A DNA stretch of 64,000 bases from a virus. This document shows positions 13,841-41,814 of this stretch, piece by piece (the first letter of the stretch is position 1; each line of letters starts with the position of its first letter). The notes under the pieces were generated by a model. It was not told the DNA's origin, ran no database searches, and worked only from the letters and a program-made list of their open reading frames with translations. The stretch lies in IMG/VR virus record IMGVR_UViG_3300029605_000149, positions 7,564 to 71,563 of that record; one strand, 5' to 3'. The position numbers and the translations under genes are program-made.

Positions 13841-13878
13841 AATAACTTTTTTTAGGGGCGTTATTATGGATCAAAAAA

Positions 13879-14808: not shown

Positions 14809-14829
14809 TACTATTCCTCGCTTTCATTG

Positions 14830-15284: not shown

Positions 15285-15336
15285 TTTTAAATTCTCCTTT
15301 ATTTAATTTTGTACAAGCAAATCACATTTAAAAATT

Positions 15337-17620: not shown

Positions 17621-17660
17621 TTTCCTTCGTATTGATTATGTAATCCATTTTAATTACCTC

Positions 17661-19463: not shown

Positions 19464-19471
19464 CTCCTAAA

Positions 19472-20284
19472 CTAAATGTAAATCGGTGTATAGGACACAG
19501 AAATTTCAACATCTGACTCCGTTGAAGAAACAATATTTTTTCCCGGGTTCAACACGGGGAAGTCAATCAAGTCAGAATCATTAAACTTATTTTTACCGTC
19601 CGCCGTTATAAGCCCTGCTACGCTGTCAATTACAACCGTCATACCCGATGTGACAGATTTAATTGTTACATCTGCCAATTTAACTTTGTTTCGAGTGTTT
19701 GCTATGCTGTTGTATTTGGCGGTAACAACAGGCAAGGTAGGTGTATTAGATTCGCAGATAATGTATCCGTTTGGTTTTACGCTTTGAGTTATTACAGCTT
19801 TATGTCTTACAGTATTAAATGTATATGTAACATCATGCTCACCACTGCTATCAAAAGTTGCGGCGGCAATACTGTTGACAATTGCCGTGTATATAAATCC
19901 ATCAGGAAGAGCAATTTCAACTACTTTGCCAACAAGCAAGCCCTCAAATACAGTTATATTTTCGGTTGCTATTGCAAGGCGGTCGGAAACTGTCAAACCT
20001 TTTGCATAGTCACCAAGATAGTGAGGGTAAAAAGTCAAAGTTAAAGTCAAAGTTCTTGTGCCGGGAACGGAAGAAAACAGTAACGGAGCTGTTAAGATAC
20101 TGCGAGAGGCAGATAAATTGTTGGTAACGGTTGTACCGCTGACCGAATAGCTTTGTAAACGGGCATTGTATGCGGAAATATCAACGCCGTTTATTGTCAT
20201 TTCGTTAAGCATTTTATCTGTCCTCCCATGCAAGTTCTTCAGAAACATACGGCGTGAGTGCCACAGCTGTTTCTCGACCGTCAA
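19472..20284 (-). CDS. distal tail protein (Dit, siphovirus tail component)
   Basis: 270 aa directly downstream of tape measure. Confidence 0.55.
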   Translation of the reverse strand: MTVEKQLWHSRRMFLKNLHGRTDKMLNEMTINGVDISAYNARLQSYSVSGTTVTNNLSASRSILTAPLLFSSVPGTRTLTLTLTFYPHYLGDYAKGLTVSDRLAIATENITVFEGLLVGKVVEIALPDGFIYTAIVNSIAAATFDSSGEHDVTYTFNTVRHKAVITQSVKPNGYIICESNTPTLPVVTAKYNSIANTRNKVKLADVTIKSVTSGMTVVIDSVAGLITADGKNKFNDSDLIDFPVLNPGKNIVSSTESDVEISVSYTPIYI

Positions 20285-23696: not shown

Positions 23697-23916
23697 TATC
23701 TCACATCCTTTACTGTGAGGTCATCGGCATCCAATGGCTCTACTTGACCTGATTATTTTTTATCGTTTAATACGATTTCAAATAGCTTTTTACAGTTACG
23801 CCCTTTACAGTATGTAAAAATGCCCTTACACCTTGACGATTTGTCAAAGTAATATAAGGGCATTTCGTAACCGCAAAAAGGGCATTTAATTTTTTGTTTG
23901 TTTTTCAATTTATCAC

Positions 23917-24261
23917 CTACGATAAATCATATTGATTTTTACTTGTTAATTTTGTTTTAACACTTAAATCTAATTCATTTTTCGGTACTTTAGAAGTGAA
24001 TTCAAACTCAGCGTAACCGCTGGTTTCGCCTTCAAATTTATATACATATGTATTTATATAATAATCATCAGTTTCGTCTTTTGATTCTGATATCTTAGTA
24101 CCTTTTCCGCCAACAATTTCTTCAACTTTAAATATAGTCATTCCCATATTTATTTGGTCAAACTCATCTTTGCTGATTCCTGACGGGTCGTTTTTAGCTC
24201 CACAGGCTGTGCAAGTCAATGCTAACAATGCAATAGTTATAAAGGATAGAATCTTTTTCAT
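23917..24261 (-). CDS. small secreted lipoprotein (moron; possible superinfection-exclusion type)
   Basis: Signal peptide MKKILSFITIALLALTCTAC with Cys; inserted between tail chaperones and tape measure. Confidence 0.55.
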   Translation of the reverse strand: MKKILSFITIALLALTCTACGAKNDPSGISKDEFDQINMGMTIFKVEEIVGGKGTKISESKDETDDYYINTYVYKFEGETSGYAEFEFTSKVPKNELDLSVKTKLTSKNQYDLS

Positions 24262-24305
24262 AGCTGTACCACCTCAATAAATTTTATATACACATTATAC
24301 AAAAT

Positions 24306-24896
24306 CTATATAAGTTCGTCAACTGATTTTCCTGATAACAAAGCCTCTTCAATCGCATTATACTTTTCCTGCACCGACAGCGGCAGAGGCAGGGCATAGA
24401 GTTTTTTCATTCGCTGATAAAAATTGCGGTCTGCCGTTGACATTTTAGGGGTAATCGGCATACTGCGATAACCTAAAATTTTTGTAAACATACAATCGGC
24501 ACGCAATGACATAAACAATGCTCTGAACTTCCACCAATGCAAATTTGCATCGTTGAGGTCAATGCCGTACTGCTCTAAAAATGCCGCATAGATATAGCCG
24601 TCATCAAAATCGTAATCAAATACAGCTTTATCATTGCCACCGCCTGAATGCTTTTCGGGTGGTTTTCCACAGCGATAAAAGTTTAAAATAGCCTCGACTG
24701 TTTCTTCGTTCATCGGGCAAGGTGTTCTGAATACAAGCTTCTGAATTTCTGCGAGTATTTCAGCCGATAGTGTATCATCAATTTGATTAGTAAGTATAAG
24801 CTCGAATTTAATCCACACTCTAAAGTCGGTGTTGATTTTATAATCTACACCCGACACGGTTATTGTATCGGGTGTTATGTCACAAAGCAGATTCAT
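24306..24896 (-). CDS. tail assembly chaperone-like protein (gpT-like position)
   Basis: Position between gpG-like ORF and tape measure; start overlaps upstream stop. Confidence 0.4.
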   Translation of the reverse strand: MNLLCDITPDTITVSGVDYKINTDFRVWIKFELILTNQIDDTLSAEILAEIQKLVFRTPCPMNEETVEAILNFYRCGKPPEKHSGGGNDKAVFDYDFDDGYIYAAFLEQYGIDLNDANLHWWKFRALFMSLRADCMFTKILGYRSMPITPKMSTADRNFYQRMKKLYALPLPLSVQEKYNAIEEALLSGKSVDELI

Positions 24897-25294
24897 TACT
24901 TTGTCGCCGGTTTAAGTGTCTTTTTGTAATGATTGTACTGCTTATGCTTTTTGCCTCTGTGATTGTTAATCGCATTTGCTTTGCCTTTATACATACTACC
25001 GAGCTTTGAGCCGAAAGCATTAACAGCCTTGATAACATCCTCGTAAGCATTAAGGCAGGTTGTAAGGTTTACGGTTTCGCCGAAAACCTTTTTAGCTGTA
25101 CCGTCACCAAAAACCTCATCAAAAAAGTTAAAAACAGCCGTACACTGAGCACGGATAAGCTCTGACTGGCGTTTGCCTTCGGGATGTAAATCGTCCATTG
25201 CTTTTGCGACATTATCGTGAGCGTGCTCGTAACGCTCCATTGCAAGTGCATCGGCAACATCAATATCGGGTAAATTTACTCCGTTAATAACCAT
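24896..25294 (-). CDS. tail assembly chaperone (gpG-like)
   Basis: 132 aa acidic protein following major tail protein. Confidence 0.45.
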   Translation of the reverse strand: MVINGVNLPDIDVADALAMERYEHAHDNVAKAMDDLHPEGKRQSELIRAQCTAVFNFFDEVFGDGTAKKVFGETVNLTTCLNAYEDVIKAVNAFGSKLGSMYKGKANAINNHRGKKHKQYNHYKKTLKPATK

Positions 25295-25296
25295 AC

Positions 25297-25806
25297 TTAT
25301 GCCACCTCCGTAGTTGCTGTAAATGTCTTTGTCGCTGTGTCAAAAGTACCCTCAACAGGATCTCCCTTAGCCAAAAAGTTACCGCTGCATCCCATTTCGC
25401 CGTCATCATTTGTAAAACTTGCAACCTCAACCGCAACACGGATTTTGCGTGCGTGATAAGTGGTTTTGTTACTCTCTCCACTCACCGGCTGGTCAAGGTC
25501 AACAATTACATAATCTGTTTCGGCGTCTGCTCCTACAAGCTGTTTTTCACCGATATTGATAATGTAATTGATTGCGTCCTGCTCACGGATCTGGTCAACC
25601 TCAAATGCCGTTGTCCAATCGTAACCGCTGATTGATTTTGTAGCAGACTTATCACAAACATATTTGCGACTCTTTGTCTGTGCGGCAGGTGACTCATCAA
25701 GAGTTTTTGCACCTACGCCCAAAAGCGAAAAATTCGGCGACTTGTTTGTGCCGCCGCAGTCAAGATAATTTGCCTGCATACGCCTCTGTCTAATTACTTC
25801 ATTCAT
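25297..25806 (-). CDS. major tail protein
   Basis: 169 aa, position and composition typical of siphovirus major tail proteins. Confidence 0.65.
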   Translation of the reverse strand: MNEVIRQRRMQANYLDCGGTNKSPNFSLLGVGAKTLDESPAAQTKSRKYVCDKSATKSISGYDWTTAFEVDQIREQDAINYIINIGEKQLVGADAETDYVIVDLDQPVSGESNKTTYHARKIRVAVEVASFTNDDGEMGCSGNFLAKGDPVEGTFDTATKTFTATTEVA

Positions 25807-26243
25807 TATTTGTTACCTCCAATTTTAGTATATTTAAGCTGGCACTGTATTTGATAGCGTGCCGATTTTGTGTCATTGTCGATTGCATAACCCGATGACA
25901 GCACCTTAACAGATAAGGGGGTTAAACCCTCGGGCAATTTCGGCAGTTTGCCGTTTAAGTCCTGTTCTGCAATCCACTCTTGTAATCTTTCATAAAATTC
26001 AAGATTTGCCATATTGATTGATTCATCAGGACTGTAATTTTCACGGCTTGCAAAGATAAAGAGGTACTGGCATTTAGCAGAGCCGTCAATGTACTGCTTT
26101 AGTACAGTTTTGCACGGCACAACCTCAATGCTGTACTGTTCGGGGTCTTCGCCGAGATAGTCAACATTAAGGTCATTATCAACCTCTAATACATCGCAAT
26201 CGGCAAACCACCTAAACAATGATTTAATGATTGATGTTTCCAT
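25806..26243 (-). CDS. tail completion / tail terminator-like protein
   Basis: Gene order within head-tail joining module. Confidence 0.4.
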   Translation of the reverse strand: METSIIKSLFRWFADCDVLEVDNDLNVDYLGEDPEQYSIEVVPCKTVLKQYIDGSAKCQYLFIFASRENYSPDESINMANLEFYERLQEWIAEQDLNGKLPKLPEGLTPLSVKVLSSGYAIDNDTKSARYQIQCQLKYTKIGGNK

Positions 26244-26599
26244 TATTTTCCTCCGCTTTTTTCTTTGGCGGTCTTGATGATGTCATCAAGATGGTCTGCT
26301 TTCATACGCTCGAACCAAAACTTTCCTCTTAAACCGTCGCTCGCTGTACCTTGCTTACCTCTGCCTGCATTAAGGTAGTAGTTGGTGTGGGCATATACAA
26401 TATCGTACATTACCTCACCACTACCTATCTTTGTGCCACGAATACCGCTCTTGATAAGATTGCCGGTTTTAAAAGGTACATATGGAGTAGAACGGCGAAG
26501 GACTTCGCTGTCCACAATTTTTTGAACCTTGCCACTCGGCTCAAGACCACGGTCTTTAAGCATAGTATCAGTAGTATTAAAAAGCAGTTTAATAATCAT
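26243..26599 (-). CDS. HK97 gp10-like head-tail joining protein
   Basis: 118 aa in connector module. Confidence 0.45.
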   Translation of the reverse strand: MIIKLLFNTTDTMLKDRGLEPSGKVQKIVDSEVLRRSTPYVPFKTGNLIKSGIRGTKIGSGEVMYDIVYAHTNYYLNAGRGKQGTASDGLRGKFWFERMKADHLDDIIKTAKEKSGGK

Positions 26600-27003
26600 T
26601 TAACCACCAATTTAATGTGTTTTGAAAAGGCACTTGCCGACAGATTTTCGGTGACCTGCGTAATCTGCTGACCGCCTGCGTCAAGGATATCCTTAACAGT
26701 AATTACATCAAGGTCAACCAAGCCTTTTACAACATAATCTCCCTTTTTTAGGGAGTAGCAATTGTCACTTTCATCAAGCGGTAAAGACTTGTATGTTGAC
26801 GGGTCAACATAGTGAGTAGTCTGCAAAACGCTGTTAGGGATACGGATTACATACTCATCAGATGCAGACACATTTTTGTCAGCAACAATAATCTGATCCC
26901 TACCGTGGTAATTAACTCCGTCCAAAACATTTGCAAACCAAAAGGTTTCACGACCCTGCTTTTTAGAGCAAAACACGGTAATGCGTGTGTTGTTTGTGAG
27001 CAT
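26596..27003 (-). CDS. head closure / head-tail adaptor protein
   Basis: Gene order. Confidence 0.4.
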   Translation of the reverse strand: MLTNNTRITVFCSKKQGRETFWFANVLDGVNYHGRDQIIVADKNVSASDEYVIRIPNSVLQTTHYVDPSTYKSLPLDESDNCYSLKKGDYVVKGLVDLDVITVKDILDAGGQQITQVTENLSASAFSKHIKLVVK

Positions 27004-27362
27004 TATCTCACCCCCTGATATAAAAGACCAGTACCGCTTAATTCCTGTTTGATAGCTTTGTACATTGCTCTTTTCTCACGGTCTGCAAGCTCATCGGCAT
27101 TGTAATCCTTGTATGTAACGCTGTAACCGTCCGTGGATTCGGACTTAATACCTTGAGGGATATTTGCCACATCTTCACGGATTTCGGCAACCGCCTCAGC
27201 AGCGGCACAGACTGCATTCTTTACCTGCTCCGTCACTTCGGGAATTTTTCCCATAATAACATAGTTTAAAAAGCGTTCCGCCTTGCGTGCATAGCGGTTA
27301 AATTCTTCGGCGGCTAAAGTACCGCCGAAAGAATCCTTGTAATAAGCATAATCCGCATACAT
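27003..27362 (-). CDS. head-tail connector protein (gp6-like)
   Basis: 119 aa immediately after capsid gene. Confidence 0.5.
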   Translation of the reverse strand: MYADYAYYKDSFGGTLAAEEFNRYARKAERFLNYVIMGKIPEVTEQVKNAVCAAAEAVAEIREDVANIPQGIKSESTDGYSVTYKDYNADELADREKRAMYKAIKQELSGTGLLYQGVR

Positions 27363-27364
27363 TT

Positions 27365-28351
27365 TTAAGATACCTTAATGTTACGGAAAACACCGCACTT
27401 TGTTGTGTTTTTGAGAGCAACAGCGGCAACCATTTCAACCTCAGCCTTTTTAACCGCACCGGGGGCAGTAAGGTCAGGCATATATGTTTTGACGATTGAC
27501 GAACCGCTGAGGGAAACACCGTGAAAAGCATCAAGACCAAGCTGTACCGCATAAAGGTCGGTAAGACCTGTCACCTTTGAGCTTGATGCACCTGTTTCGT
27601 AAATCGGCACGCAAGGCACAGTCTTTGAACCGTCAAAGTAGTTACCCATATCGTAAAAAATGATACCGTCATAACCCTGAGCAGTTTTACCGAAAGCGTC
27701 CTCGGCTCTTGTGAGGTATCCTGCACGCTGAGCAACGCTCTTGAGTTTTGCGATAATCTTGCTGTTGCCGAGCAGGAAAGTAGGCTTGCCGTCAATACCG
27801 CCGATAAACTCATTGAGCATATCAATCATAAGCTGATAGTTGCTTGTAACAAGTGCAGAGGTTGAGAGGTCAACTACTGTCTTATCAGAGCCAGCGTTGT
27901 ACTCTGTGCTTGTACCCTTGAGCAGAGTTGTAAGACCGTCAAAGTCAACCGATTTATTAGTCTTTGAGCCGTTGATGCAACAGTTCTGAAAATGGTTTCT
28001 TGTGGCAAGAGTTTTCTGTTCGAGCTGAAACGCAATTTCGTTTGTTGTTGCTTCCTGAATAACACGGTCAACCTCACTTGCACCGCCGAAGATTTTAAGA
28101 TCAACGGTTTTCTTAACTTTCTTTGCTTCATTGGCTGTGTATTCGCTGTTAATTTCTCTGCCTGCCGCTGTTGACGGTGTCTGGAGCTGTAAATAACCGT
28201 ATGTCATAGTAGAACCACCAACACCCGGTGAAACGCAATCATCAAATGTGAGTTCGTCCATAAACTGTGAGCCACGGCGAAGAGTATCAATAACCTCCTG
28301 TGTAACTTTGTCGGCTCTGCCAACGCTTGCTTCTGCTAATGTGATAGGCAT
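27365..28351 (-). CDS. major capsid protein
   Basis: 328 aa following scaffold gene. Confidence 0.7.
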   Translation of the reverse strand: MPITLAEASVGRADKVTQEVIDTLRRGSQFMDELTFDDCVSPGVGGSTMTYGYLQLQTPSTAAGREINSEYTANEAKKVKKTVDLKIFGGASEVDRVIQEATTNEIAFQLEQKTLATRNHFQNCCINGSKTNKSVDFDGLTTLLKGTSTEYNAGSDKTVVDLSTSALVTSNYQLMIDMLNEFIGGIDGKPTFLLGNSKIIAKLKSVAQRAGYLTRAEDAFGKTAQGYDGIIFYDMGNYFDGSKTVPCVPIYETGASSSKVTGLTDLYAVQLGLDAFHGVSLSGSSIVKTYMPDLTAPGAVKKAEVEMVAAVALKNTTKCGVFRNIKVS

Positions 28352-28363
28352 TTTGTTTCCTCC

Positions 28364-28903
28364 TTATTTCTTGTAAAAATCTTCAACGGCGGATTTGATG
28401 TTAGAGCCTGATTTTGCTTTTGCTCCGCCTGTGGGTCCGCCGAGGTCAAGTTTCTTTTTTGGTTTTTCCTCTGACTTAAAGAGGAAAGGCTTTGACTGTT
28501 TCAGCTCTGCAAGCTGTTCGTCAAGTCCCGCGATACTGCCGTCCTCAGCCTGAGATACCTTTGACATATCAATGTTAGCCTTTACCGACACGAGGTCAGC
28601 CGCACCTGCGTTATTGATGGCAGATTCAACCGCCTGCTCAAACTTGTAGTCATTGAGCTTTTTGTCGCCGTCAAGCTGTGCCTGCTTAACCTTGTTCTGC
28701 CAATCGGGGTCATAACCTTCAAGATTAGCGTTTGCAGTTTCGAGCTTTTTTGACACATCGTCATACTTGTCCTTTTCGACATACTGACCGCCTGCAAGGT
28801 TGCCGAGCTTAACATCTGCCGCATTGTTTACCTTTTCTGCAAACTGTTCAAAGGTTAATGCCTCGTCACCAAACAGGGCTTTTAAAATTTCCATTAAGTC
28901 CAT
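28364..28903 (-). CDS. capsid scaffolding protein
   Basis: 179 aa, highly charged coiled-coil, between MuF-like and capsid genes. Confidence 0.7.
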   Translation of the reverse strand: MDLMEILKALFGDEALTFEQFAEKVNNAADVKLGNLAGGQYVEKDKYDDVSKKLETANANLEGYDPDWQNKVKQAQLDGDKKLNDYKFEQAVESAINNAGAADLVSVKANIDMSKVSQAEDGSIAGLDEQLAELKQSKPFLFKSEEKPKKKLDLGGPTGGAKAKSGSNIKSAVEDFYKK

Positions 28904-29133
28904 TTCTTTGCTCCTTTCAAATTATTAGCAATTGTGTGTACTCAAAAATTTGAGCAATATTAAAAGCCCCCGAAATTCGGGAGCTTATAACCATAATCGG
29001 TAAATTTAAGGGTAAAAGTAAAAGGGATGTTTCAAACACCCCTTTAATACCCTTTTAAATTCGTTTAATTTTGTTTTTATTCAATCAACTATGTAACTTT
29101 ACCTTTTGGCAGTAAAAACCAATATAGTCAAAT

Positions 29134-29238
29134 TTAAGCTAACTTTTGTTTCCAAAGCGGTACATAAGTACCTTTATAAAAATCTTCAAGATGATCATTA
29201 AAATAATCTCTTTCAATTTCATACTCTTCTGGAGACAT
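29134..29238 (-). CDS. small 34-aa ORF between MuF-like gene and scaffold gene
   Basis: GGAGAGAGA RBS 4 nt before ATG; MSPEEYEIERDYFNDHLEDFYKGTYVPLWKQKLA; not in ORF track (<60 aa). Confidence 0.25.
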   Translation of the reverse strand: MSPEEYEIERDYFNDHLEDFYKGTYVPLWKQKLA

Positions 29239-29287
29239 ATTCTCTCTCCAATATGGAGCTTCTTTCAATGTACCTGTAGCCCAATTA

Positions 29288-31078
29288 TTACTCAATTTCA
29301 ATCAATCCCTTCGTAAACTTTTTAAGCAATCCATCAACAATAATTTCTTCTCGTTTTCTTGTTCGTTCACCTGCCGTTATTATACCATTCTTATATTGCA
29401 AATTCAACTCCGAAATTTCATCAGGAAATAGTCTGTCAAATAGAGCGTAATTGGGAGCAGCTTGTGTTTTTTCAGCAACATATATGATACCGTCAATACG
29501 AACCGCAACAAACATTTCTATATTATCTGTTGTCAAAAGTGTTCTCATGTCGGTTTCAGAAAAATACCCATCAGTATTATGATTATGTACAAAAGCAAAT
29601 TTCTGATTTGGATGTTCCTTGATAAATTTTCTAAATTCGTCAAATCCAACAGAAAAACTGTTTCCTTCCTCCGAATAAGCATATACTCCATTTGATAAAT
29701 CAACCAGTATCATATGCTCTAAACCATTTTTTGAACCTAATTCAGCAACTTTTTTACTCGCAGAAGATAATCCATCAATTATAGCTTGATCATATCCATC
29801 AATATTAATACGAAAACTTGCTTTGCTATTAAACTTCAAAACCCTGCCTGTATTTCTAATAGCACTATTTGCCGCCGCACTAATCTTTTGCTTTTTATTT
29901 CTCCACACCGCTTTTTGAGCCGTACTTCTGCCAAATCCGTAAGCCTGAGAGCGTGAATTATCTTTGAGTAATCCCGTCTTATTACAAAAGCTATTCAGTT
30001 CTGACTCCTGCCGTTTCAACTTGCTTGAATAGTGACTGAAATTTTTTTCTAACTTTTGTAATAGCTGTTCATCGGAAAGATTATTCAAAGCCTCATCACA
30101 AGCGGCAAGTGTTCTTTTTGTTGCCCTGATTTTGCGTTCGTAGGCTCTTTGCTGTTGTTCTGCCTCGTATAGCGTGTGCATTGAGCCGTCAGGGTATTCA
30201 ATTTTTTTAGCATTAAGTTCTTCAAGGTCTTTCTCCGAATACATTCGGGTACTGCCCTCAAAATACGGATACCAATCGTGGCGGCAGTTCCAGCCCTTAA
30301 AGCCGTCACCCGTGCCATAGCCGATATCAGACAAAGACAAGTAGCCTTTTTGACCGCTTAAACTCACAATTCGACCCTGCCAAGCGGCGTGGCTCGGTCT
30401 TGCTCCTGCGTGAGCGGTAATTTCCATAAGGTCACAGCCAAGCTCCTGTGCGTTTGCAAGGCATATCTGACCTGTGGTCTGTCCTATGCCTGTCATAACA
30501 TTGCGGCGAACCGCAACATCAAGCCTGTCACGGTGTCCCGAGGGGTAGATTACAAACGCTCCGTCTTGAGCAACCTGTCTGATTGCGTCGGCAATTGCCT
30601 GTTGCGGAGTAAACGCACCGCTTGACGCTTTTAATTCGGCAAGACTGCAAGCATTGATAAAGCTCGTTTGCGATGACACAGCTGTGGTCAGAGTAAGATT
30701 GCTAAGATTGCCCTGCGTTTTCTTAAAACCTGCCTCAAGTAATTGCATTTGTACATCAGACACCTTGAGTGACTTTGGATTCATACCGTTCTGACGGTAA
30801 ATTTCGTTATCATACTCCGTAGCGGTCACACCTGCATCTTCAAAAAGTTTTTTTAGTTCTGATTCTGTTTTGTCACTATACTTAGCGACACTTGACAGCA
30901 CTTCAGAGTGAAGAATGCCGAGCTCCTGCATATGCTGTGCCTGCCATATGCCCGTGTCGGTCATTGTACCCGTTTTGGCAATTCTTCGGGCAATGTCACG
31001 GACGATTTGTTCTTCAAGTTGCGAGTAAAGATTGATGATATTATCGGCACAATGGGCAAGCTGTTCGGGGGTGAGCAT
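29288..31078 (-). CDS. MuF-like (SPP1 gp7 family) head morphogenesis protein with 300-aa C-terminal extension
   Basis: KGWNCRHDWYPY motif typical of Mu F/gp7 family about residue 265. Confidence 0.8.
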   Translation of the reverse strand: MLTPEQLAHCADNIINLYSQLEEQIVRDIARRIAKTGTMTDTGIWQAQHMQELGILHSEVLSSVAKYSDKTESELKKLFEDAGVTATEYDNEIYRQNGMNPKSLKVSDVQMQLLEAGFKKTQGNLSNLTLTTAVSSQTSFINACSLAELKASSGAFTPQQAIADAIRQVAQDGAFVIYPSGHRDRLDVAVRRNVMTGIGQTTGQICLANAQELGCDLMEITAHAGARPSHAAWQGRIVSLSGQKGYLSLSDIGYGTGDGFKGWNCRHDWYPYFEGSTRMYSEKDLEELNAKKIEYPDGSMHTLYEAEQQQRAYERKIRATKRTLAACDEALNNLSDEQLLQKLEKNFSHYSSKLKRQESELNSFCNKTGLLKDNSRSQAYGFGRSTAQKAVWRNKKQKISAAANSAIRNTGRVLKFNSKASFRINIDGYDQAIIDGLSSASKKVAELGSKNGLEHMILVDLSNGVYAYSEEGNSFSVGFDEFRKFIKEHPNQKFAFVHNHNTDGYFSETDMRTLLTTDNIEMFVAVRIDGIIYVAEKTQAAPNYALFDRLFPDEISELNLQYKNGIITAGERTRKREEIIVDGLLKKFTKGLIEIE

Positions 31079-32496
31079 TAAGTGCCACCGCCTTCATCAA
31101 AAAAACTTTGTACACCGCTTTCGGGTAACATTTCTGCCGCCTGTTTATCATCAACTCCATACCGCCATTTGAGGTAGTCGGTCTTTTTGCGGATACCGCT
31201 GTTGACCTCATTGAGCTGTATAGCCTGCTCTTTGTCCTTATCTTCAAGCACGCCGTCGCCCCAATTAAAGCTAACTTCGTACTCTCCGCTTGGAGCAAGA
31301 TTACAGGCATCAGCCATAGCATTGCACGCATATATGTAGTCCTCAAGTACAGCCTCAAGCGAGTGCTGCATATCAGACACAGCTGTATAGCTACGCTGTT
31401 TTGATGCTTTGATTTCTTCCGCTGTCTTATCTACATTTTGTGGGTTTGACAATGTGCCGTAAGCAAGGGAGCAGTTAAACTCAATCTGTCTTTTTATTTC
31501 GTTTAGTCCATTTGAGTAGTTATCATCACGCAAAGTCGGGTTAAAAACTTCATAAAAAGACTTATCTTTGTTATCGTCTGCATCAATGTTAAATTTGCGA
31601 AACAATCTATCACGGGTTGACGGTGTTCCGAGCGTATCTTCGCCCGGTCGCTGTCGAAGAACTTCTTCGCCGGCATCAACTGCAAGCTCGCCGCCTTCAA
31701 ACTCCCACAAATATCTGTCCCACTGCAAGTCAGCCTCATTAAGCAGCTTAATTGCTCGGCTGTAAACAGACACACCTAAGGGACTGCCACTTTCGATGTT
31801 ATTAGCAAAAGGTACAGACCAAAAAGCAAATAAAGGACGGTCAACATCATTGATAACTATGTATGGGTCAATTCTCGACCACATATCGCTGTCAAGATTT
31901 TCAGGATTTATTTCCGCCCCGATGTTGTCGGGACTGGATGAAACAAAAAAGTGACTTTCGATTGTGTGTGATTTGTTTTCGTAGCTGTAAGTCTGCTTTT
32001 CAACTCTTGTGTAATAGTTCTTGCCTTTGACCTCTTGATTAAAAAACACGGCAGCGGTTATTATGCCGTTGCTGTAATTAAGAGGGATAAACTTGTCCTG
32101 CGTGATGCAATCGGGGAGGATTACACCATTACGAACATACGGTTTAAACATTATGCCGCCGACCGCACAACCTGCCTCAAGCCTTACTCTGAGCTGTTCA
32201 AGCAATCTTTCATACTGTTCTTGTAAATAATCCGCACGCTCTGAACCCGTTATTTCGCTCTCAAATTCAATCATAATTAACCGTGCAAATTCGGACGCTA
32301 TCGTTGCACCGAGGTTAAGTGTCTTGTTGTGGCAATCTTTGCTCCAAGACGGCTCATCGGCATATATTTCAAGCCATACTTCCATAGCCTCTTCCATATT
32401 ATCAAATTGATAATTGCTCGTAGCGTTTTCGGGGTCAAGTTTGTTTACAATACTCCTTAACCAACTTAAAAACACATATTTAGCACGCCTTTTCAA
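31078..32496 (-). CDS. portal protein
   Basis: 472 aa between TerL and MuF-like gene. Confidence 0.8.
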   Translation of the reverse strand: MKRRAKYVFLSWLRSIVNKLDPENATSNYQFDNMEEAMEVWLEIYADEPSWSKDCHNKTLNLGATIASEFARLIMIEFESEITGSERADYLQEQYERLLEQLRVRLEAGCAVGGIMFKPYVRNGVILPDCITQDKFIPLNYSNGIITAAVFFNQEVKGKNYYTRVEKQTYSYENKSHTIESHFFVSSSPDNIGAEINPENLDSDMWSRIDPYIVINDVDRPLFAFWSVPFANNIESGSPLGVSVYSRAIKLLNEADLQWDRYLWEFEGGELAVDAGEEVLRQRPGEDTLGTPSTRDRLFRKFNIDADDNKDKSFYEVFNPTLRDDNYSNGLNEIKRQIEFNCSLAYGTLSNPQNVDKTAEEIKASKQRSYTAVSDMQHSLEAVLEDYIYACNAMADACNLAPSGEYEVSFNWGDGVLEDKDKEQAIQLNEVNSGIRKKTDYLKWRYGVDDKQAAEMLPESGVQSFFDEGGGT

Positions 32497-32511
32497 CTGC
32501 TCACCTCCTTA

Positions 32512-33786
32512 TTATTTGTATTTAAACTCACGCTTTAGGACTGTATAAGCAAAATAGCGTATATCGTCCATTGCGTGGTCATTTTCTTTTACCACTTTAT
32601 CAACTTCGGCTTTTTCATCCCAGCGGTACATTCCGAACTCCTCTTGTGATGCCTTGCACTTAACGCCGATTTTAATTCTGCCGTCGGTCAGCATTTGGCT
32701 TGTAGTTCGGATACCGTTTATAACATCATTTTTCGCCGACTTAACAAAAAACTTGCCGTGTCTTTTGATCGTAGCTTTAAAGCTGGCGGCGGACGGGTCA
32801 ATTATCACACGCTCTATATAGCGGTCACCTGCGAGCTTATCAAGCTCTGCGTAATGCTCTTCATCGGTGCGTTGATAGCCTTCCTTGCGACTATTGTAGT
32901 AATATTCGTCAACTCTAATAGCTTCGTTGTCGGTCACACACCAAAGTCCCATTGAGCAAGGGTTAATAGTTCCATAGTCCATTGATATGTACCATGTGCC
33001 TACAAGCTCATCGGGATTGCCATCCCACAACTTATCCTTAATATGGTCATTGTAATCTTGGTAAACAAGACCCTCGGCAATAACCCACTCACCAAGGATA
33101 AAGCGGCGGTAAAATGTGCCTTGGTAAAGGCTGTAATACCGCTGTTTTACCTTGTCTGATAATGATAGGTTATCGTCCATTAAAAATTTAAGTCGCAAAG
33201 CGTGCTTTTCAGGAGCCTTTAAAACCCACTCACGATAAAACCAATGGTTAGGGTTATCGGGGTTGCAATTGAACCAAAACCTTGCACCCTCAACAGAGCA
33301 ACGGGCAAGAGCCTGCTCAACAAATGACCTCGGCATCAGAGCAACCTCATCGAAGAGGACGCCTGCAAGCGTAACGCCCTGAATTAAGTCCTGTGAGCTT
33401 TCGTCTTTACCGCCGAAAATGTAAAATGTGTTAGATTTGCCGTCTTTGCTGATTATCAGCAAGTTTTCCGACCGTTTATCCTTGATGTCATAGCGGTGTT
33501 TGAGCATATTGATGAGAGGCTTAATAACATTTCGCCTGCAAGAGCCTACGGTTTTGCCGCATATAGCAAAGTTACAGTCCGAGAACATCGCCATTGCCCA
33601 AAAGATAAAAGATATACTCATGCTTACAGTTTTTCCCGAACGAACAGATCCGTCTGCAATTATCGCATCATATTTATCCTTTATCCCGTCAACTTTCCAC
33701 CAGCTAAGTACTTTTAGCTGCTTTCTCGAAAAAGGCTTAAATTTCATCTTTAAAAGCCTCCTTGCCTGCACCTTCGAGTGCCTCAA
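32512..33786 (-). CDS. terminase large subunit
   Basis: Walker A ADGSVRSGKT near N-terminus, 424 aa. Confidence 0.85.
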   Translation of the reverse strand: MRHSKVQARRLLKMKFKPFSRKQLKVLSWWKVDGIKDKYDAIIADGSVRSGKTVSMSISFIFWAMAMFSDCNFAICGKTVGSCRRNVIKPLINMLKHRYDIKDKRSENLLIISKDGKSNTFYIFGGKDESSQDLIQGVTLAGVLFDEVALMPRSFVEQALARCSVEGARFWFNCNPDNPNHWFYREWVLKAPEKHALRLKFLMDDNLSLSDKVKQRYYSLYQGTFYRRFILGEWVIAEGLVYQDYNDHIKDKLWDGNPDELVGTWYISMDYGTINPCSMGLWCVTDNEAIRVDEYYYNSRKEGYQRTDEEHYAELDKLAGDRYIERVIIDPSAASFKATIKRHGKFFVKSAKNDVINGIRTTSQMLTDGRIKIGVKCKASQEEFGMYRWDEKAEVDKVVKENDHAMDDIRYFAYTVLKREFKYK

Positions 33787-34072
33787 TCAATCCGTCGTCA
33801 ACGGTTTCTACTGTTTCGGGCTTGAAGTAATCCGCATACAGCTTAACAGCCCGTGTGTCGCCGTTCTGACATTTTTTAATCAGTGCCTGCCGAATTGCCG
33901 TCAGCTCATCATTTTCATATTTTGCAATTAAAGCATTTAACTTTTTGCGAAATTCCCTTGATTTTACAACTCCATAGGACAGAGCAAGTGATTTTAAATC
34001 TTCAACAATGTTAAATTCCTGCTTTGTGTTTGTATCCTTGAGCAATTGTTCAAGTTGTGACAGCCTATTCAT
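33737..34072 (-). CDS. hypothetical protein
   Basis: 111-aa ORF. Confidence 0.4.
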   Translation of the reverse strand: MNRLSQLEQLLKDTNTKQEFNIVEDLKSLALSYGVVKSREFRKKLNALIAKYENDELTAIRQALIKKCQNGDTRAVKLYADYFKPETVETVDDGLIEALEGAGKEAFKDEI

Positions 34073-34320
34073 TTTGCACCTTCTTTCTTTTTTGCATAAA
34101 AATAAACACCCGTTAAAAGGTGTTTAAAAGCATTTTAATGTATATAAAAACAGCGGTTTGTGGTGTTAATTTTAATGTCAGCCATATGAACTAATTACTG
34201 GAGGGATTATCCATGAACGAACAAACCGCTGTTTTTAACTTGGGTATAGCTTCGCCATCCGCAACCTGAGGTTATCGGTGACTTCGCCGTATGTCAGCCG
34301 TTGCATCGGGCGGAGACGAA

Positions 34321-34830
34321 TCAATCCGCCGTCTGTTCGGGCATTTGTTCGGTAAACGATACTGTAAGCTCAGTCGGCTCACTTGCAAGGGTAATTTTGA
34401 CCGTTGCTTTCTTGTATCGTTTCTGTACTTTCACAATTTTATCTTTATTCTCAGCCAAAAATCCGCTGACTGTTTCGTAACCGTCATCAGTGAATTTAAG
34501 CACCGAGGGAGTTTTCAAAAGTTCGCTCAAAGTCAAAATAAACTCTGATTCTGTGTCCGTAAGAGGGATAGGGCTTGTGCCACCTCCGAGCAATCTAATA
34601 ATGTTCGGAATGCCCTTAAACACATAATATTTTGACCACTCGTAATCCATACGAACGAAAACATAGCCGTCAAAAAGTATATGCGGTTGGGTTATCCACT
34701 TGCCTTTTGAGCGTATCAGTTTGTTTTCAATCGGCACAATGGCATCATAACCACGATGTCGGAGCTGTTCCGCAACAGCATGTTCTTGTCCTGTGTTTAC
34801 ATACAAAACATACCACTTGATGTTCATCAT
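34321..34830 (-). CDS. NusG/RfaH-like transcription elongation factor paralog (NGN plus KOW-like)
   Basis: KWYVLYVNTGQEHAVAEQL...IVP...KGKWITQPHILFDGYVFVRMDY mirrors NusG/RfaH NGN motif; C-terminal VSGF...IVKV...KATVKITL resembles KOW. Confidence 0.75.
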   Translation of the reverse strand: MMNIKWYVLYVNTGQEHAVAEQLRHRGYDAIVPIENKLIRSKGKWITQPHILFDGYVFVRMDYEWSKYYVFKGIPNIIRLLGGGTSPIPLTDTESEFILTLSELLKTPSVLKFTDDGYETVSGFLAENKDKIVKVQKRYKKATVKITLASEPTELTVSFTEQMPEQTAD

Positions 34831-35381
34831 CCTTGCTCCTTTGCTTTGAGCTTGTTGATTTCATCCATAAGCTCGTTGTAGAGCCGTGGGTTACTTTTCT
34901 TGATAGTGTCATAAAGCAGGCTCTGATTTTCCTCGAGGGCAAGACGCTTGTCTGACTTGACATCCGTGTCGGTCTTACGCTTGTATGTTACTGCTCTCGC
35001 AAGGGCAGTAGCCTGTCTTAAAAGGTCTTCGGCAGACACTTTATCGAATTGTCCTTCGTCAAGTTTTGATATGGCATCAAAAACCTTTTGTGATGCCATT
35101 CTCAAAATAGCCTCTGCAGGGTCAATTTCAGGATAACGCTCGGTTTCGGTGAGTATCATTCTGAAATTTTCCTGTGCGATTCGTAACTGCTGAGCGTTCG
35201 CCAAAAACCTTGATGCGTAACGGCTAACTGCTGCCTGTGACAGCTGTTCGCCGTTATCAGCAAGGTATGACACAATTTCACGATAGGTCTGTCCGCTGAC
35301 AAGCATCTGATCTACGGTGTCCTTGAGGTCAGGAGGCAATTTGTCGATTTTTCCGCAAGCTCTGCGGTTGTTTCTGCCCAT
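34827..35381 (-). CDS. Mu gp27-like (DUF3486) putative terminase small subunit
   Basis: N-terminus MGRNNRRACGKIDKLPPDLKDTVDQMLVSGQTYREIVSYL matches the gp27 family opening. Confidence 0.6.
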   Translation of the reverse strand: MGRNNRRACGKIDKLPPDLKDTVDQMLVSGQTYREIVSYLADNGEQLSQAAVSRYASRFLANAQQLRIAQENFRMILTETERYPEIDPAEAILRMASQKVFDAISKLDEGQFDKVSAEDLLRQATALARAVTYKRKTDTDVKSDKRLALEENQSLLYDTIKKSNPRLYNELMDEINKLKAKEQG

Positions 35382-36050: not shown

Positions 36051-36070
36051 AAAAACTACTCCAAAAAAAT

Positions 36071-36105
36071 AAGGTATCATTAAGTCTGTAACTTAATAAT
36101 ACCTT
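36071..36105 (-). promoter_or_regulatory. 15-bp dyad (AAGGTATCATTAAGT N5 ACTTAATAATACCTT), then T7 on minus strand: intrinsic terminator or Mor-type activator site
   Basis: Read in sequence directly downstream of Mor-like gene stop and upstream of the next RBS. Confidence 0.5.
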
Positions 36106-36154
36106 ATAAAACCGTACTCCCGTAGAGGAAGAATATCCTATTTTTTCTTCATTG

Positions 36155-36490
36155 TTATATATCATCAAAAATACTTAACTGACCGTCAAGATTACCGTTT
36201 GAGCATATGATTCTCACATACCTTTCAGACAAATCATACTCTCTTGCGAGCTGACTGCTGTTGTATCCATTGTACTTCGCCTTGATTTCAGCATTGCGTT
36301 CAAGTTTTTGTAACTCGCTGTATTTTTGGATATATATTGTATCTCCACCAAATGTTTGACAGAGTTTAATATAGCTTTCAATTCCTATTATCTCCGCTAT
36401 ATCCCTTTGAGTGCCTACCAAATCATCAAGATTTATTTTCACCAGCCTTCCTCCTTTGAGCACTGTCAATGTACTTTTTAAGTTTTTCAA
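36155..36490 (-). CDS. mor: Mor-family middle transcription activator
   Basis: CQTFGGDTIYIQK...RNAEIKAKYNGYNSSQLAREYDLSERYVRIIC matches Mor/C family C-terminal HTH. Confidence 0.75.
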   Translation of the reverse strand: MKNLKSTLTVLKGGRLVKINLDDLVGTQRDIAEIIGIESYIKLCQTFGGDTIYIQKYSELQKLERNAEIKAKYNGYNSSQLAREYDLSERYVRIICSNGNLDGQLSIFDDI

Positions 36491-41736: not shown

Positions 41737-41814
41737 AAAATCACATCCTTTTGACCTGCCATCATCAGAGCAGGGAGGTCATTTCCTGCTGACCGCCTTG
41801 CGGCGGTTTCGGCT

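What the first reader, a model, noticed from the sequence alone, without database searches (positions are those of the whole stretch)
34321..34830. Phage-encoded NusG/RfaH-like paralog within the late region
The 169-aa product has a clear NGN-domain pattern (KWYVLYVNTGQEHAVAEQL...IVP...KGKWITQPHILFDGYVFVRMDY...IIRLLGGG) and a KOW-like C-terminus. It sits between the gp27-like TerS gene and TerL, at the head of a roughly 21-kb unidirectional late operon. That operon contains internal hairpins, including nested palindromes before the tape-measure gene and a lipoprotein moron. Specialised NusG paralogs such as RfaH, LoaP and UpxY act as processive antiterminators of long operons. Here it may replace the Mu C activator, which is absent, to push transcription through the structural genes.
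Basis: partly seen in the sequence, partly recalled or inferred. Interest (0 to 1): 0.7.

Follow-up and report, generated by a model that had tools for sequence, protein, structure and literature searches.

The report
Phage LoaP-like antiterminator with RAGATH-28 site
A gut-Clostridia prophage carries a divergent LoaP-type copy of the transcription factor NusG, followed directly by a conserved structured element (the orphan RNA motif RAGATH-28) and two terminators, which looks like a switch that lets RNA polymerase read on into 21 kb of virion and lysis genes.

Summary
ORF 34321-34830(-) encodes a 169-aa NusG-family protein: Pfam NGN scores 70.6 bits against a cutoff of 22.2, and the AlphaFold model shows NGN plus a five-stranded C-terminal barrel. 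It belongs to the LoaP branch, not RfaH. LoaP is its best NCBIfam model (96.8 bits, below the 125 cutoff) and the LoaP-like "NusG-RNA complex" 8f5g is its best structural match. Its KOW sequence motif is degenerate.

The main new result is what lies downstream. The gene's stop codon sits inside the first hairpin of a full-length RAGATH-28 match (34249-34330, 63.7 bits against 45.3). Two intrinsic terminators follow, then the packaging genes. A gene-plus-element pair is found in 36 of 41 related loci, down to 27% protein identity. Most distant partners are bona fide LoaPs (139-184 bits), and the downstream terminase is often non-homologous.

The layout (UNCG-capped hairpin, hairpin plus invariant AUGGCGAAGC, then terminators) parallels the LoaP-controlled dfn leader of Bacillus velezensis. 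The most likely function is a lambda-Q-like late-gene antitermination switch, fed by a single Mor-dependent promoter. Function is inferred, not tested.

No paper in the searched library links RAGATH-28 or phages to LoaP.

The parts
34321..34830 (-). Gene for the 169-aa LoaP-like NusG paralog (NGN domain plus a degenerate KOW barrel). It is translationally coupled to the upstream gp27-like gene.
   Evidence: (PHROG 6386 'transcription antiterminator', E=2.6e-25).
34249..34330 (-). RAGATH-28 element (RF03052), full length, proposed loading site for the paralog.
   Evidence: 63.7 bits against gathering 45.3. (alignment). (own CM, 87.7 bits, the only hit in the 64-kb window). (covariation).
34309..34330 (-). 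Hairpin 1: GGCGGA-UU-GA-UUCG-UC-UCCGCC. The gene's UGA stop codon (34323-34321) lies inside it. Architecture is stem, bulged U(U), 2 bp, then a stable tetraloop.
   Evidence: In relatives the tetraloop is UUCG, CUCG or GUAA. The hairpin lies 16-60 nt beyond the stop in L088, L071, L086 and L091.
34259..34278 (-). Hairpin 2 (CCGAUAACC-UCA-GGUUGCGG). Its sequence varies and covaries across relatives. It ends directly against the 3' motif.
   Evidence: (all 8 pairs show changes on both sides).
34249..34260 (-). Near-invariant 3' motif GGAUGGCGAAGC. Its core GCGAAGC fits the GCGNAGC mini-hairpin class and resembles the ops core GCGGTAGC. It is a candidate pause or non-template-strand signal.
   Evidence: (the exact 10-mer occurs once in the window).
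34146..34236 (-). Terminator T1: a long-range hairpin (AAAAACAGCGGUUUGU ... ACAAACCGCUGUUUUU) with CCCUCC in its large loop.
   Evidence: Conserved with sequence changes in L054, L058, L060, L078, L079 and L080.
34098..34126 (-). Terminator T2: a 9-bp hairpin followed by UUUUU, about 25 nt before the next start codon.
33737..34072 (-). First gene after the terminators, a small TerS-like HTH protein. TerL follows at 32512-33786.
13055..34072 (-). Co-directional late array of about 21 kb: TerS-like, TerL, SPP1-type portal, minor capsid protein 2, scaffold, capsid, tail, tape measure, BppU/GDSL protein, amidase and Dam methylase.
28962..29045 (-). Two internal terminator-like hairpins in the 384-nt gap after the minor-capsid-protein gene.
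   Evidence: Conserved with compensatory changes in L041, L054, L060 and L078.
23786..23882 (-). Nested hairpins before the tape-measure gene. The inner hairpin (23816-23865) ends in UUUUU and is terminator-like.
   Evidence: (z=-7.7).
34827..35381 (-). Mu gp27-like gene directly upstream, in the same operon.
36155..36490 (-). Mor/C-family transcription activator gene, located after GemA.
   Evidence: A Mor-like gene also lies about 1.6 kb upstream of the LoaP gene in most distant loci.
36102..36139 (-). Candidate Mor-dependent promoter: dyad AGGATATTCTTCCT (36126-36139), a 17-nt spacer, then TATAAG(G) (36102-36108) overlapping the 5' arm of the early terminator.
   Evidence: The dyad is unique in the window and differs in the relatives whose Mor has diverged (L054, L058).
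36063..36107 (-). Conserved early-operon terminator (18-bp hairpin plus U7) immediately before the SD and ATG of the first gene of the operon that ends with the LoaP-like gene.

Best explanation
The gene encodes a divergent LoaP-type NusG paralog that acts as the phage's late-gene antiterminator.

Proposed sequence of events:
1. The Mor-like activator fires a single promoter embedded in the early terminator (about 36100-36140).
2. That promoter transcribes a short 'middle' operon whose last gene is the paralog: membrane protein, phrog_25462, gp27-like, LoaP-like.
3. Directly after the stop codon, RNA polymerase transcribes the RAGATH-28 element and then meets two intrinsic terminators (T1, T2) before the packaging genes.
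4. Without the protein, transcription ends there.
5. Once the protein accumulates, it binds the nascent UNCG-capped hairpin 1, as LoaP binds the dfn hairpin.
6. It then docks through its NGN domain on polymerase held at a pause. [quoted passage not shown]
7. The modified elongation complex reads through T1 and T2 and the internal terminators at about 29.0 kb and 23.8 kb, expressing the 21-kb virion and lysis array.

Shown here: family membership of the protein, the presence and structure of the element, its strict co-location with LoaP-type genes, and the terminators. Inferred: binding, pausing, antitermination and the timing logic.
For: Protein. NGN scores 70.6 bits. LoaP is the best of the NusG-family models over the full length. 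The best PDB sequence and fold match is 8f5g 'NusG-RNA complex', full length, TM 0.60-0.64. PHROG 6386 is annotated 'transcription antiterminator'.

Element. RAGATH-28 scores 63.7 bits and starts at the stop codon.

Coupling:
- All 8 Rfam gathering-level hits in 341 kb (both strands) lie at the 3' end of the gene, on its strand.
- With my own CM, 32 of 33 hits in 525 kb do so. The one exception is the weakest hit (E=0.64).
- In a reciprocal motif scan of viral contigs, all 4 CM-supported elements have a LoaP-like ORF ending 0-53 nt upstream.
- Partners are as little as 27-37% identical to the window protein, and the distant ones tested pass the curated LoaP cutoff at 137-184 bits.
- Their downstream terminase genes are not homologous to the window's.

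Structure. 91.8% of cells are paired, against 29-60% for slid controls. 15 of 16 pairs show changes on both sides.

Architecture. Terminators lie between the element and the next gene in most lineages. Internal terminators are conserved. The order hairpin, pause, terminator matches the experimentally dissected dfn leader, where LoaP needs the UNCG hairpin, is helped by a downstream pause and reads through several intrinsic terminators (PMC12691694).

Links to known LoaP leaders. L070 and L076 combine a dfn-like hairpin core (YUGUUUCGGC) with the RAGATH-28 3' motif.

Promoters. The candidate Mor-site dyad is unique in the window, and no repeated promoter-like motif occurs in the late gaps. T2 lies about 25 nt from the next ATG, leaving no room for a downstream promoter.
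Against: - There are no experimental data for this protein or for RAGATH-28.
- The window protein falls below the curated LoaP cutoff (96.8 against 125) and has lost the KOW glycines. The position aligned to the 'ER' of canonical LoaPs reads 'IR'.
- Hairpin 1 differs in detail from the dfn hairpin. Its tetraloop can be CUCG or GUAA, so 'UNCG recognition' cannot be assumed.
- The L063/L083 clade and L070 have the element but no leader terminator.
- Five LoaP loci, including the phage loci L065 and L074, lack a detectable element.
- Several distant clades carry tandem CGTTATAACG palindromes between the terminator and the first packaging gene. If these are a separate promoter, read-through would not be needed there.
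- Clostridial phage promoters cannot be recognised reliably, so independent late promoters in the 29-kb and 23.8-kb gaps are not excluded.
- Co-location in related phages partly reflects shared ancestry.
Confidence: 0.65

Rival explanations
1. Mu-style multiple late promoters. The terminators at 34.1, 29.0 and 23.8 kb are genuine operon ends, each followed by its own late promoter, activated by Mor or an unknown factor. The LoaP-like protein would affect at most the short step into the packaging genes, or only improve processivity.
For: Mu itself uses four C-dependent late promoters (own knowledge). The gaps of 384 nt and 220 nt could hold promoters. Weak sigma-70-like matches exist near 29268-29239 and 23781-23752. 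Distant clades have palindromes before the first packaging gene.
Against: The candidate Mor dyad occurs once in 64 kb, and no shared motif is found in the gaps. Promoter-like matches are no more frequent than in shuffled sequence. Only about 25 nt separate T2 from the next start codon. This model does not explain why the LoaP gene and element are so strictly retained.
Confidence: 0.15
2. RAGATH-28 works independently of the protein, for example as a small RNA, an RNA-processing or stability element, or a DNA site for packaging. It sits next to the gene only because the block is inherited together.
For: Rfam files it as an sRNA of unknown role. RAGATH motifs were defined by proximity to ribozyme-associated genes (own knowledge), and a hammerhead lies in this prophage. 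The element lies just upstream of the terminase genes, where pac sites often are (own knowledge).
Against: Co-location persists to 27-37% protein identity while the downstream packaging genes are replaced by non-homologous ones. Covariation indicates a folded single strand, not a duplex protein site. The phage has MuA and MuB, and such phages package from their ends (own knowledge). LoaP is the one bacterial NusG-like protein known to bind a leader RNA hairpin (PMC12691694).
Confidence: 0.1
3. Autoregulation. The protein binds hairpin 1, which contains its own stop codon, to control termination of its own translation or the stability of its mRNA's 3' end. This could act alone or in addition to antitermination.
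For: The UGA stop lies in the hairpin-1 loop in the window clade and in many distant loci.
Against: In L088, L071, L086, L091, L097 and L101 the hairpin lies 9-60 nt beyond the stop. This model explains neither hairpin 2, nor the invariant 3' motif, nor the terminators.
Confidence: 0.07
4. General host take-over factor. The paralog replaces host NusG on all elongation complexes, altering pausing or Rho/NusA-dependent termination genome-wide, with no dedicated loading site.
For: NGN domains bind RNAP generically (own knowledge). The degenerate KOW could have lost host-partner contacts.
Against: The conserved single-copy cis element is unexplained. Characterised specialised paralogs are operon-specific (PMC7819879).
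Confidence: 0.03

Closest known systems
LoaP and the dfn/mln leaders of Bacillus velezensis (NusG specialised paralog; PMC12691694)
   Same: It is a two-domain NusG paralog encoded adjacent to its target. The leader has a tetraloop-capped irregular RNA hairpin, then a pause region, then intrinsic terminator(s). The long operon has further internal intrinsic terminators. LoaP is the best-scoring family, and the LoaP-like 8f5g is the best structural match. Distant partners of the same element are bona fide LoaPs. L070 and L076 share a 9-10-nt hairpin core with dfn.
   Different: The setting is a phage late region, not a polyketide or polysaccharide cluster. The gene lies inside the transcription unit, with the site at its own 3' end. 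The element is compact (82 nt against a 417-nt leader). Hairpin 1 has a different sequence (UGA-YUCG-UC). There is an extra covarying hairpin 2 and an invariant AUGGCGAAGC tract, which is not described for LoaP. The window protein scores below the LoaP cutoff and has a degenerate KOW.
RAGATH-28 RNA motif (Rfam RF03052)
   Same: The window sequence is a full-length member (63.7 bits against 45.3) with both hairpins and both conserved single-stranded tracts.
   Different: Rfam lists it as an sRNA with no function, and no paper in the searched library mentions it. Here it is tied to a protein partner and a terminator context.
RfaH and the ops element
   Same: It is a specialised NusG paralog loaded at a single short site downstream of the promoter. 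The 3' motif core GCGAAGC (GCGNAGC) resembles the ops core GCGGTAGC (GCGNNAGC), which forms a non-template-strand hairpin at a pause.
   Different: The RfaH models score only 33 and 28 bits. The C-terminal domain is predicted as a beta-barrel, not an autoinhibitory alpha-hairpin. No ops sequence is present. The hosts are Clostridia, where intrinsic rather than Rho termination dominates.
Lambda Q with qut and tR' (late-gene antitermination)
   Same: The logic is the same. The regulator gene is the last gene before a loading site and a strong terminator, which together gate one very long late transcription unit.
   Different: There is no sequence or fold relationship. Q loads at a promoter-proximal sigma-dependent pause. 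Here loading is presumably during elongation, through an RNA hairpin and the NGN domain.
Phage Mu Mor to C late-gene cascade
   Same: It has Mu-type early genes (MuA, MuB, GemA, Mor, gp27-like), with a Mor-family activator after GemA and a candidate dyad-containing activator-dependent promoter.
   Different: No second Mor/C paralog is present, and no repeated activator site precedes the late genes. A NusG paralog with terminators occupies the regulatory step that C performs in Mu. The structural genes are SPP1-like.

Membership tests
NusG/Spt5 superfamily | N-terminal NGN domain (Pfam PF02357 at or above 22.2 bits) | tested here: met
   70.6 bits, E=1.6e-19, residues 5-96. The AF2 model has an alpha/beta NGN fold matching NusG and RfaH NGN structures.
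NusG/Spt5 superfamily | C-terminal KOW sequence motif (Pfam PF00467) | tested here: not met
   No hit at E<=1. Relatives L088, L085 and L091 score 23-28 bits against a cutoff of 22.3. GPLxGxEG is replaced by GFLAENKD.
NusG/Spt5 superfamily | C-terminal five-stranded beta-barrel (KOW fold) | tested here: met
   Prediction only. Strands at 110-114, 117-122, 132-136, 141-148 and 151-158, with pLDDT 84-91. Full-length alignment to 8f5g over 172-176 columns.
LoaP (NCBIfam NF033641) | Score at or above the curated cutoff of 125 bits | tested here: not met
   Window 96.8 bits, covering 161 of 166 model positions. It is still the top family by more than 50 bits. Clade mates score 102-103 bits (L041, L063). 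All 16 more distant relatives tested pass at 127-184 bits.
LoaP (NCBIfam NF033641) | Encoded next to a target operon whose leader holds a tetraloop-capped hairpin followed by intrinsic terminator(s) | tested here: met
   Hairpin 1 with a UUCG loop at 34309-34330, T1 and T2 at 34098-34236, then the late genes.
LoaP (NCBIfam NF033641) | Specific high-affinity binding of the leader RNA hairpin by both domains | not testable with these tools
   Only indirect support: strict co-location, and the best structural match is the RNA-bound 8f5g.
LoaP (NCBIfam NF033641) | Read-through of intrinsic terminators by antagonising NusA | not testable with these tools
   Terminators are present, but activity is unknown.
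RfaH | Sequence membership (TIGR01955 at or above 144.5 bits; NF006534 at or above 124 bits) | tested here: not met
   33.1 and 27.9 bits, NGN region only.
RfaH | Alpha-helical hairpin C-terminal domain that masks the NGN domain | tested here: not met
   AF2 predicts an all-beta C-terminal domain. This is a prediction only, and fold-switching cannot be excluded.
RfaH | ops element GGCGGTAGnnTG in the target leader | tested here: not met
   No exact match. The three 1-mismatch matches are antisense or inside coding sequence, near the chance level. The related GCGNAGC motif at 34249-34255 is a resemblance only.
UpxY | NF033644 at or above 100 bits | tested here: not met
   39.5 bits.
RAGATH-28 (Rfam RF03052) | Covariance-model score at or above the gathering threshold of 45.3 bits, with both hairpins | tested here: met
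   63.7 bits, model positions 1-85 of 85. Both helices are supported by covariation among relatives.
Mu Mor/C activators (Pfam PF08765), for the neighbouring gene 36155-36490 | Score at or above 24.9 bits | tested here: met
   50.4 bits. PHROG 'late transcriptional activator'. No second copy among the ORFs scanned.

The most novel reading that the evidence does not exclude
RAGATH-28 is a compact, bipartite loading site for LoaP-type antiterminators. Hairpin 1 would be the RNA bound by the protein. Hairpin 2 plus the invariant AUGGC-GNA-GC tract would be a hairpin-stabilised pause whose non-template strand folds into a GCGNAGC mini-hairpin read by the NGN domain, as ops is read by RfaH. If so, LoaP-type factors would combine RNA recognition with an RfaH-like DNA read-out, a DNA or pause signal that the LoaP literature has looked for and not found. 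The AUGGC core is shared with the mapped dfn pause site, and another LoaP locus (L093) shares 12 nt with that site. It would also mean a whole group of gut Clostridia transposable phages times late genes by NusG-paralog antitermination instead of a C-type activator.
Probability: 0.3. Interest if true: 0.8.

Novelty: new variant of a known kind. Interest (0 to 1): 0.68.

Why it matters
- It would give a function and a protein partner to an orphan structured-RNA family (RAGATH-28).
- It would extend LoaP-type antitermination from antibiotic and polysaccharide clusters to phage late-gene control.
- It would show a Mu-like regulatory cascade in which an elongation factor takes the place of the C-type initiation activator.
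- The 82-nt element plus its terminators is a natural minimal cassette for dissecting how LoaP-type proteins are recruited. This includes a conserved candidate pause or non-template-strand signal that is not evident in the 417-nt dfn leader.
- The same cassette could serve as a portable read-through switch for Gram-positive synthetic biology.
- The phages concerned are common in human-gut metagenomes: 77 IMG/VR loci were returned in one scan.

Tried and rejected
- MAFFT alignment of 21 elements followed by RNAalifold failed. Hairpin 2 was misaligned and only a spurious-looking loop-to-3'-motif pairing was returned. I replaced it with a hand-annotated seed and a covariance model.
- The RfaH assignment was rejected.
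The CM and the exact-motif searches find a single site, at 34249-34333.
- A second reciprocal motif scan (CTGATTCGTC type) returned only chance co-occurrences. None had hairpins, CM support or a LoaP ORF. Three hits of the first scan were also chance.
- A search for repeated promoter or activator motifs in the late-region gaps found only chance-level repeats.
- Nearest-neighbour DNA folding of the 3' motif was uninformative, because the mini-hairpin bonus is not in the parameters.
- The phage-genome collection held no cultured phage with a close homolog, only unannotated faecal metagenomic records at 30-35% identity.
- The LoaP structure and discovery papers (PMC11648650, PMC5913657) and the supplement of the RAGATH paper are not held. 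I therefore could not compare RNA-contact residues or the authors' notes on RAGATH-28.
- I considered a pac-site reading of the element and rejected it as the main explanation. Covariation points to a folded single strand, and the phage carries Mu-type transposition genes.
Full report
**1. The observation**

Its ATG overlaps the stop codon of the upstream Mu gp27-like gene and follows an AAGGAG Shine-Dalgarno sequence. It is therefore the last cistron of a small operon.

Profile searches confirm an NGN domain (Pfam PF02357, 70.6 bits against a cutoff of 22.2). PHROGs places it in family 6386, annotated 'transcription antiterminator'.

No Pfam KOW hit is obtained. Even so, the LoaP and NusG profiles and PDB 8f5g align through the C-terminus. 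An AlphaFold2 model (pLDDT 83.3, pTM 0.72) shows the NGN domain plus a five-stranded barrel. Canonical relatives carry GPLxGxEG and do hit Pfam KOW; the window clade has GFLAENKD instead. The domain is thus a KOW fold with a degenerate motif.

**2. Which NusG paralog**

Among the NCBIfam models, LoaP scores best by a wide margin. The scores are LoaP 96.8 bits over 161 of 166 positions, NusG 43.4, UpxY 39.5 and RfaH 33.1. The LoaP score is nevertheless below the curated cutoff of 125.

The best solved structure, by both sequence and fold, is 8f5g 'NusG-RNA complex' (full length, TM 0.60-0.64). I take this to be the LoaP-hairpin crystal structure cited in PMC12691694, but that identification is my inference. 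RfaH structures match only the NGN domain.

The predicted C-terminal domain is all-beta, not RfaH's alpha-hairpin. The protein is a divergent offshoot of the LoaP branch. It is not an RfaH, and by the curated score it is not a formal LoaP member.

**3. The unexpected part: RAGATH-28**

An Rfam scan of the whole window gave two hits. One is a type II hammerhead at 41750-41814. The other is a full-length RAGATH-28 RNA at 34249-34330 on the gene's strand (63.7 bits against a gathering score of 45.3).

The element begins 7 nt before the stop codon, so the UGA lies inside the conserved loop of its first hairpin. It has four parts:

- Hairpin 1 (34309-34330): GGCGGA-UU-GA-UUCG-UC-UCCGCC.
- A linker containing CAUA.
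- Hairpin 2 (34259-34278).
- The tract GGAUGGCGAAGC (34249-34260).

No paper in the searched library mentions RAGATH-28. None links LoaP to phages.

**4. Is the pairing of gene and element more than chance or synteny?**

I collected 94 loci encoding relatives from IMG/VR and GTDB. The hosts are Ruminococcus, Oscillospiraceae, Christensenellaceae and other Clostridia.

*Independent Rfam model.* Scans of 26 diverse loci (277 kb, both strands) gave 7 more gathering-level RAGATH-28 hits. Every one lies at the 3' end of the homolog, on its strand, and none lies elsewhere.

*My own covariance model*. It found 33 hits in 525 kb. Of these, 32 are at that position, and the one exception is the weakest hit (E=0.64). 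The window has a single hit.

*Overall count.* Four further loci (L067, L069, L072, L087) carry a variant by eye, in which the UUCG tetraloop is replaced by GUAA. Including them, 36 of 41 loci with an intact gene end have the element.

*Reciprocal test.* A motif scan of viral contigs gave 7 matches. The 4 supported by the CM each have a LoaP-like ORF ending 0-53 nt upstream (E about 1e-28 to 1e-30). The other 3, and all 8 matches of a second scan, lack hairpins, CM support and the ORF, so they are chance matches.

*Independence from the coding sequence.* In several lineages hairpin 1 lies 9-60 nt beyond the stop codon, so it is not a by-product of the coding end.

*Diversity of partners.* Partner proteins are as little as 27-37% identical to the window protein, and the distant ones tested pass the LoaP cutoff (137-184 bits). 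In those loci a Mor-like gene usually lies about 1.6 kb upstream, but the terminase downstream is not homologous to the window's. The cassette is kept while the structural module is exchanged.

*Exceptions.* Five LoaP loci (L065, L074, L092, L093, L094) lack a detectable element. RAGATH-28 therefore marks a phage subset of LoaPs, not all of them.

**5. Structure of the element**

On the model-guided alignment of 33 sequences, 91.8% of cells form standard pairs, against 29-60% when partners are slid by 1-3 columns. Of the 16 pairs, 15 show changes on both sides, and none of 500 shuffles reaches the observed covariation score. One caveat applies: the alignment was fitted to the model.

Hairpin 1 has a constant architecture across clades. 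It consists of a stem, a bulged U, a 2-bp step (GA:UC or GU:GC) and a stable tetraloop (UUCG, CUCG or GUAA).

L070 and L076 carry YUGUUUCGGC. This shares 9-10 nt with the core of the dfn hairpin (CUGUUUCGGGC; sequence from the supplement of PMC12691694). In both loci it is followed by the RAGATH-28 3' motif, which bridges the two element types.

The 3' tract is nearly invariant. Its variants are GCGAAGC, GCGGAGC (L012, L058, L083) and GCGTAGC (L076). All fit GCGNAGC, the 'mini-hairpin DNA' class defined together with GCGNNAGC in PMC13037366. Only L063 departs, with GCAAAGC.

The RfaH ops core GCGGTAGC fits GCGNNAGC. It forms a non-template-strand hairpin with stem C3:G8 and loop G4-A7 at a pause (PMC5995543). 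This is a resemblance, not a test.

The tract always starts 0-2 nt after hairpin 2, so its end lies 10-12 nt from the hairpin base. That is the geometry of hairpin-stabilised pauses (own knowledge).

**6. What lies downstream**

Two intrinsic terminators follow the element in the window:

- T1 (34146-34236) is a long-range hairpin followed by a U-run.
- T2 (34098-34126) is a 9-bp hairpin plus U5. It ends about 25 nt before the SD and ATG of the next gene (34072), which leaves no room for a promoter.

One or two terminators occupy this position in most lineages, with different sequences. They are absent in the L063/L083 clade and in L070.

Further terminator-like hairpins lie inside the co-directional 21-kb array:

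- Two lie after the minor-capsid-protein gene (28962-29045). They are conserved with compensatory changes in four diverged relatives.
- A nested hairpin before the tape-measure gene (23786-23882, z=-7.7) has an inner stem ending in U5.

The array runs from a TerS-like gene and TerL through an SPP1-type portal, minor capsid protein 2, scaffold, capsid, Gp15 and tape measure to a BppU/GDSL protein, an amidase and a Dam-type methylase.

**7. What lies upstream**

The early region is Mu-like: MuA, MuB-like ATPase, GemA and Mor. A Mor/C-family gene is thus present, contrary to a literal reading of the finding. There is only one copy, however, and it sits in Mor's position after GemA.

Directly after it comes a conserved 18-bp terminator (36063-36107), abutting the SD of the first gene of the LoaP-containing operon. 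Just 5' of that terminator is a dyad, AGGATATTCTTCCT (36126-36139). Seventeen nucleotides further on is TATAAG, which overlaps the terminator's 5' arm.

The dyad is a perfect palindrome in L078. It changes to TTGAAATATTTCAA in L054, where Mor is only 47% identical. It occurs once in the 64-kb window.

My reading, which is inference, is an activator-dependent 'middle' promoter nested in the early terminator. Early transcripts would stop there, while Mor-initiated transcripts would start inside the hairpin and escape it. No similar site or shared motif precedes the late gaps.

**8. Mechanism proposed**

The cascade would run as follows:

1. The early operon produces Mor.
2. Mor activates the middle operon (membrane protein, phrog_25462, gp27-like, LoaP-like).
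3. The accumulated LoaP-like protein binds nascent hairpin 1.
4. It loads onto polymerase paused at hairpin 2 plus AUGGCGAAGC.
5. The modified polymerase reads through T1, T2 and the internal terminators.

This mirrors the dissected dfn system. There, LoaP needs the UNCG hairpin and is aided by a pause located between the hairpin and the terminator. It antagonises NusA and suppresses several intrinsic terminators in the operon (PMC12691694).

In regulatory logic the arrangement resembles lambda Q with qut and tR'. It occupies the step that C performs in Mu. The steps shown and the steps inferred are separated in the Best explanation section.

**9. Rivals and weaknesses**

- The main rival is Mu-style separate late promoters in the gaps. 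The protein would then matter only for the first step, or only for processivity. I cannot recognise Clostridial phage promoters reliably.
- Some distant clades have tandem CGTTATAACG palindromes between the terminator and the first packaging gene. These could be a promoter or operator, or a pac site.
- The element could also act independently of the protein, or serve autoregulation through the stop-codon overlap. Neither reading explains the whole architecture.
- The window protein's sub-threshold LoaP score, its lost KOW glycines and its 'IR' in place of the canonical 'ER' caution against assuming identical RNA recognition.
- Nothing here is experimental.

**10. Novelty and verdict**

Phage NusG-like 'antiterminators' already exist as an annotation (PHROG 6386), and LoaP biology is established. 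The bare finding is therefore a new member of a known kind. What appears new, with no mention in the searched library, is threefold:

- LoaP-type genes in gut Clostridia transposable phages are tied to the orphan motif RAGATH-28.
- They form a compact hairpin, pause-like motif and terminator cassette at the head of the late genes.
- The cassette contains an invariant mini-hairpin-type tract reminiscent of ops.

I rate this a new variant of a known kind, with interest 0.68.

Noticed in passing
window 41750-41814 (-): Type II hammerhead ribozyme (RF02276, 43.9 bits against 37). It lies 14 nt upstream of the start of the MuA-like transposase gene (39778-41736). RAGATH motifs were originally defined by association with ribozyme-linked genes.
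   Followed up: no
L067 2367-2441 (+): Twister-sister ribozyme (RF02681, 49.2 bits against 34), about 3.6 kb upstream of the LoaP gene in a related phage contig.
   Followed up: no
window 36063-36139 (-): Candidate Mor-dependent promoter nested in the early terminator: dyad AGGATATTCTTCCT, a 17-nt spacer, then TATAAG overlapping the 5' arm of a conserved 18-bp terminator. The dyad is unique in the window and differs where Mor has diverged (L054, L058).
   Followed up: partly
L093 about 1330-1400 (+), downstream of its LoaP gene: A canonical LoaP locus (170 bits) without RAGATH-28 has a UUUCG-containing hairpin followed by AAAATGGCTGTTTTC. This is a 12-nt identity with the experimentally mapped dfn pause site (ccgtcATGGCTGTTTTCggg), and it shares the AUGGC core with RAGATH-28's AUGGCGAAGC.
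   Followed up: partly
window 34309-34318 and 34249-34258 (-): The 3' half of the hairpin-1 loop (UUCGUC) is complementary to GGCGAA of the 3' motif (5-6 bp). The GUAA-variant clade keeps the complementarity (UCGCC with GGCGA). Both sides are invariant, so covariation cannot tell whether this is a pseudoknot, an alternative pairing or coincidence.
   Followed up: partly
window 34198-34208 (-), and the equivalent in L054, L058, L060, L078, L079, L080: The large loop of terminator T1 always contains an anti-Shine-Dalgarno-like CCCUCC or CCUCC.
   Followed up: no
L067, L069, L071, L073, L076, L085, L086, L090: 100-280 nt after the element: Tandem palindromes of the type CGTTATAACG lie between the leader terminator and the first packaging gene in distant clades. 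They could be a pac site or an operator or promoter.
   Followed up: no
L070, L073, L076, L085, L088, L090, immediately after the element: In canonical-LoaP clades the 3' motif can form GGCG-AAGCN-YGCC, directly followed by a U-run. This is a small hairpin plus U-tract that could itself be a pause or weak terminator. The window clade lacks the U-run but can form AUGGC-GAA-GCUAU.
   Followed up: partly
L065 about 1975-2070 and L074 (+): Two phage loci syntenic with the window (gp27-like, LoaP at 132-133 bits, TerL, portal) have no detectable RAGATH-28. L065 has UAGUUUCGGAACC, and 50 nt later CAGAUGGCUCAGC (9 of 11 positions match the 3' motif), possibly a diverged element.
   Followed up: partly
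window 13055-44177: The prophage is a hybrid. Its early region is Mu-type for transposition and regulation (MuA, MuB-like, GemA, Mor, gp27-like). Its structural module is SPP1-like siphovirus (SPP1 portal, minor capsid protein 2, Gp15, tape measure). It ends with an amidase and a Dam-type methylase. A LexA-like S24 repressor gene (43239-44177, +) lies just beyond the transposase end.
   Followed up: partly
window 33737-34072 and 34827-35381 (-): Two different small-terminase-like genes flank the LoaP-like gene: a Mu gp27-type upstream and an HTH type (phrog_24579) downstream.
   Followed up: no
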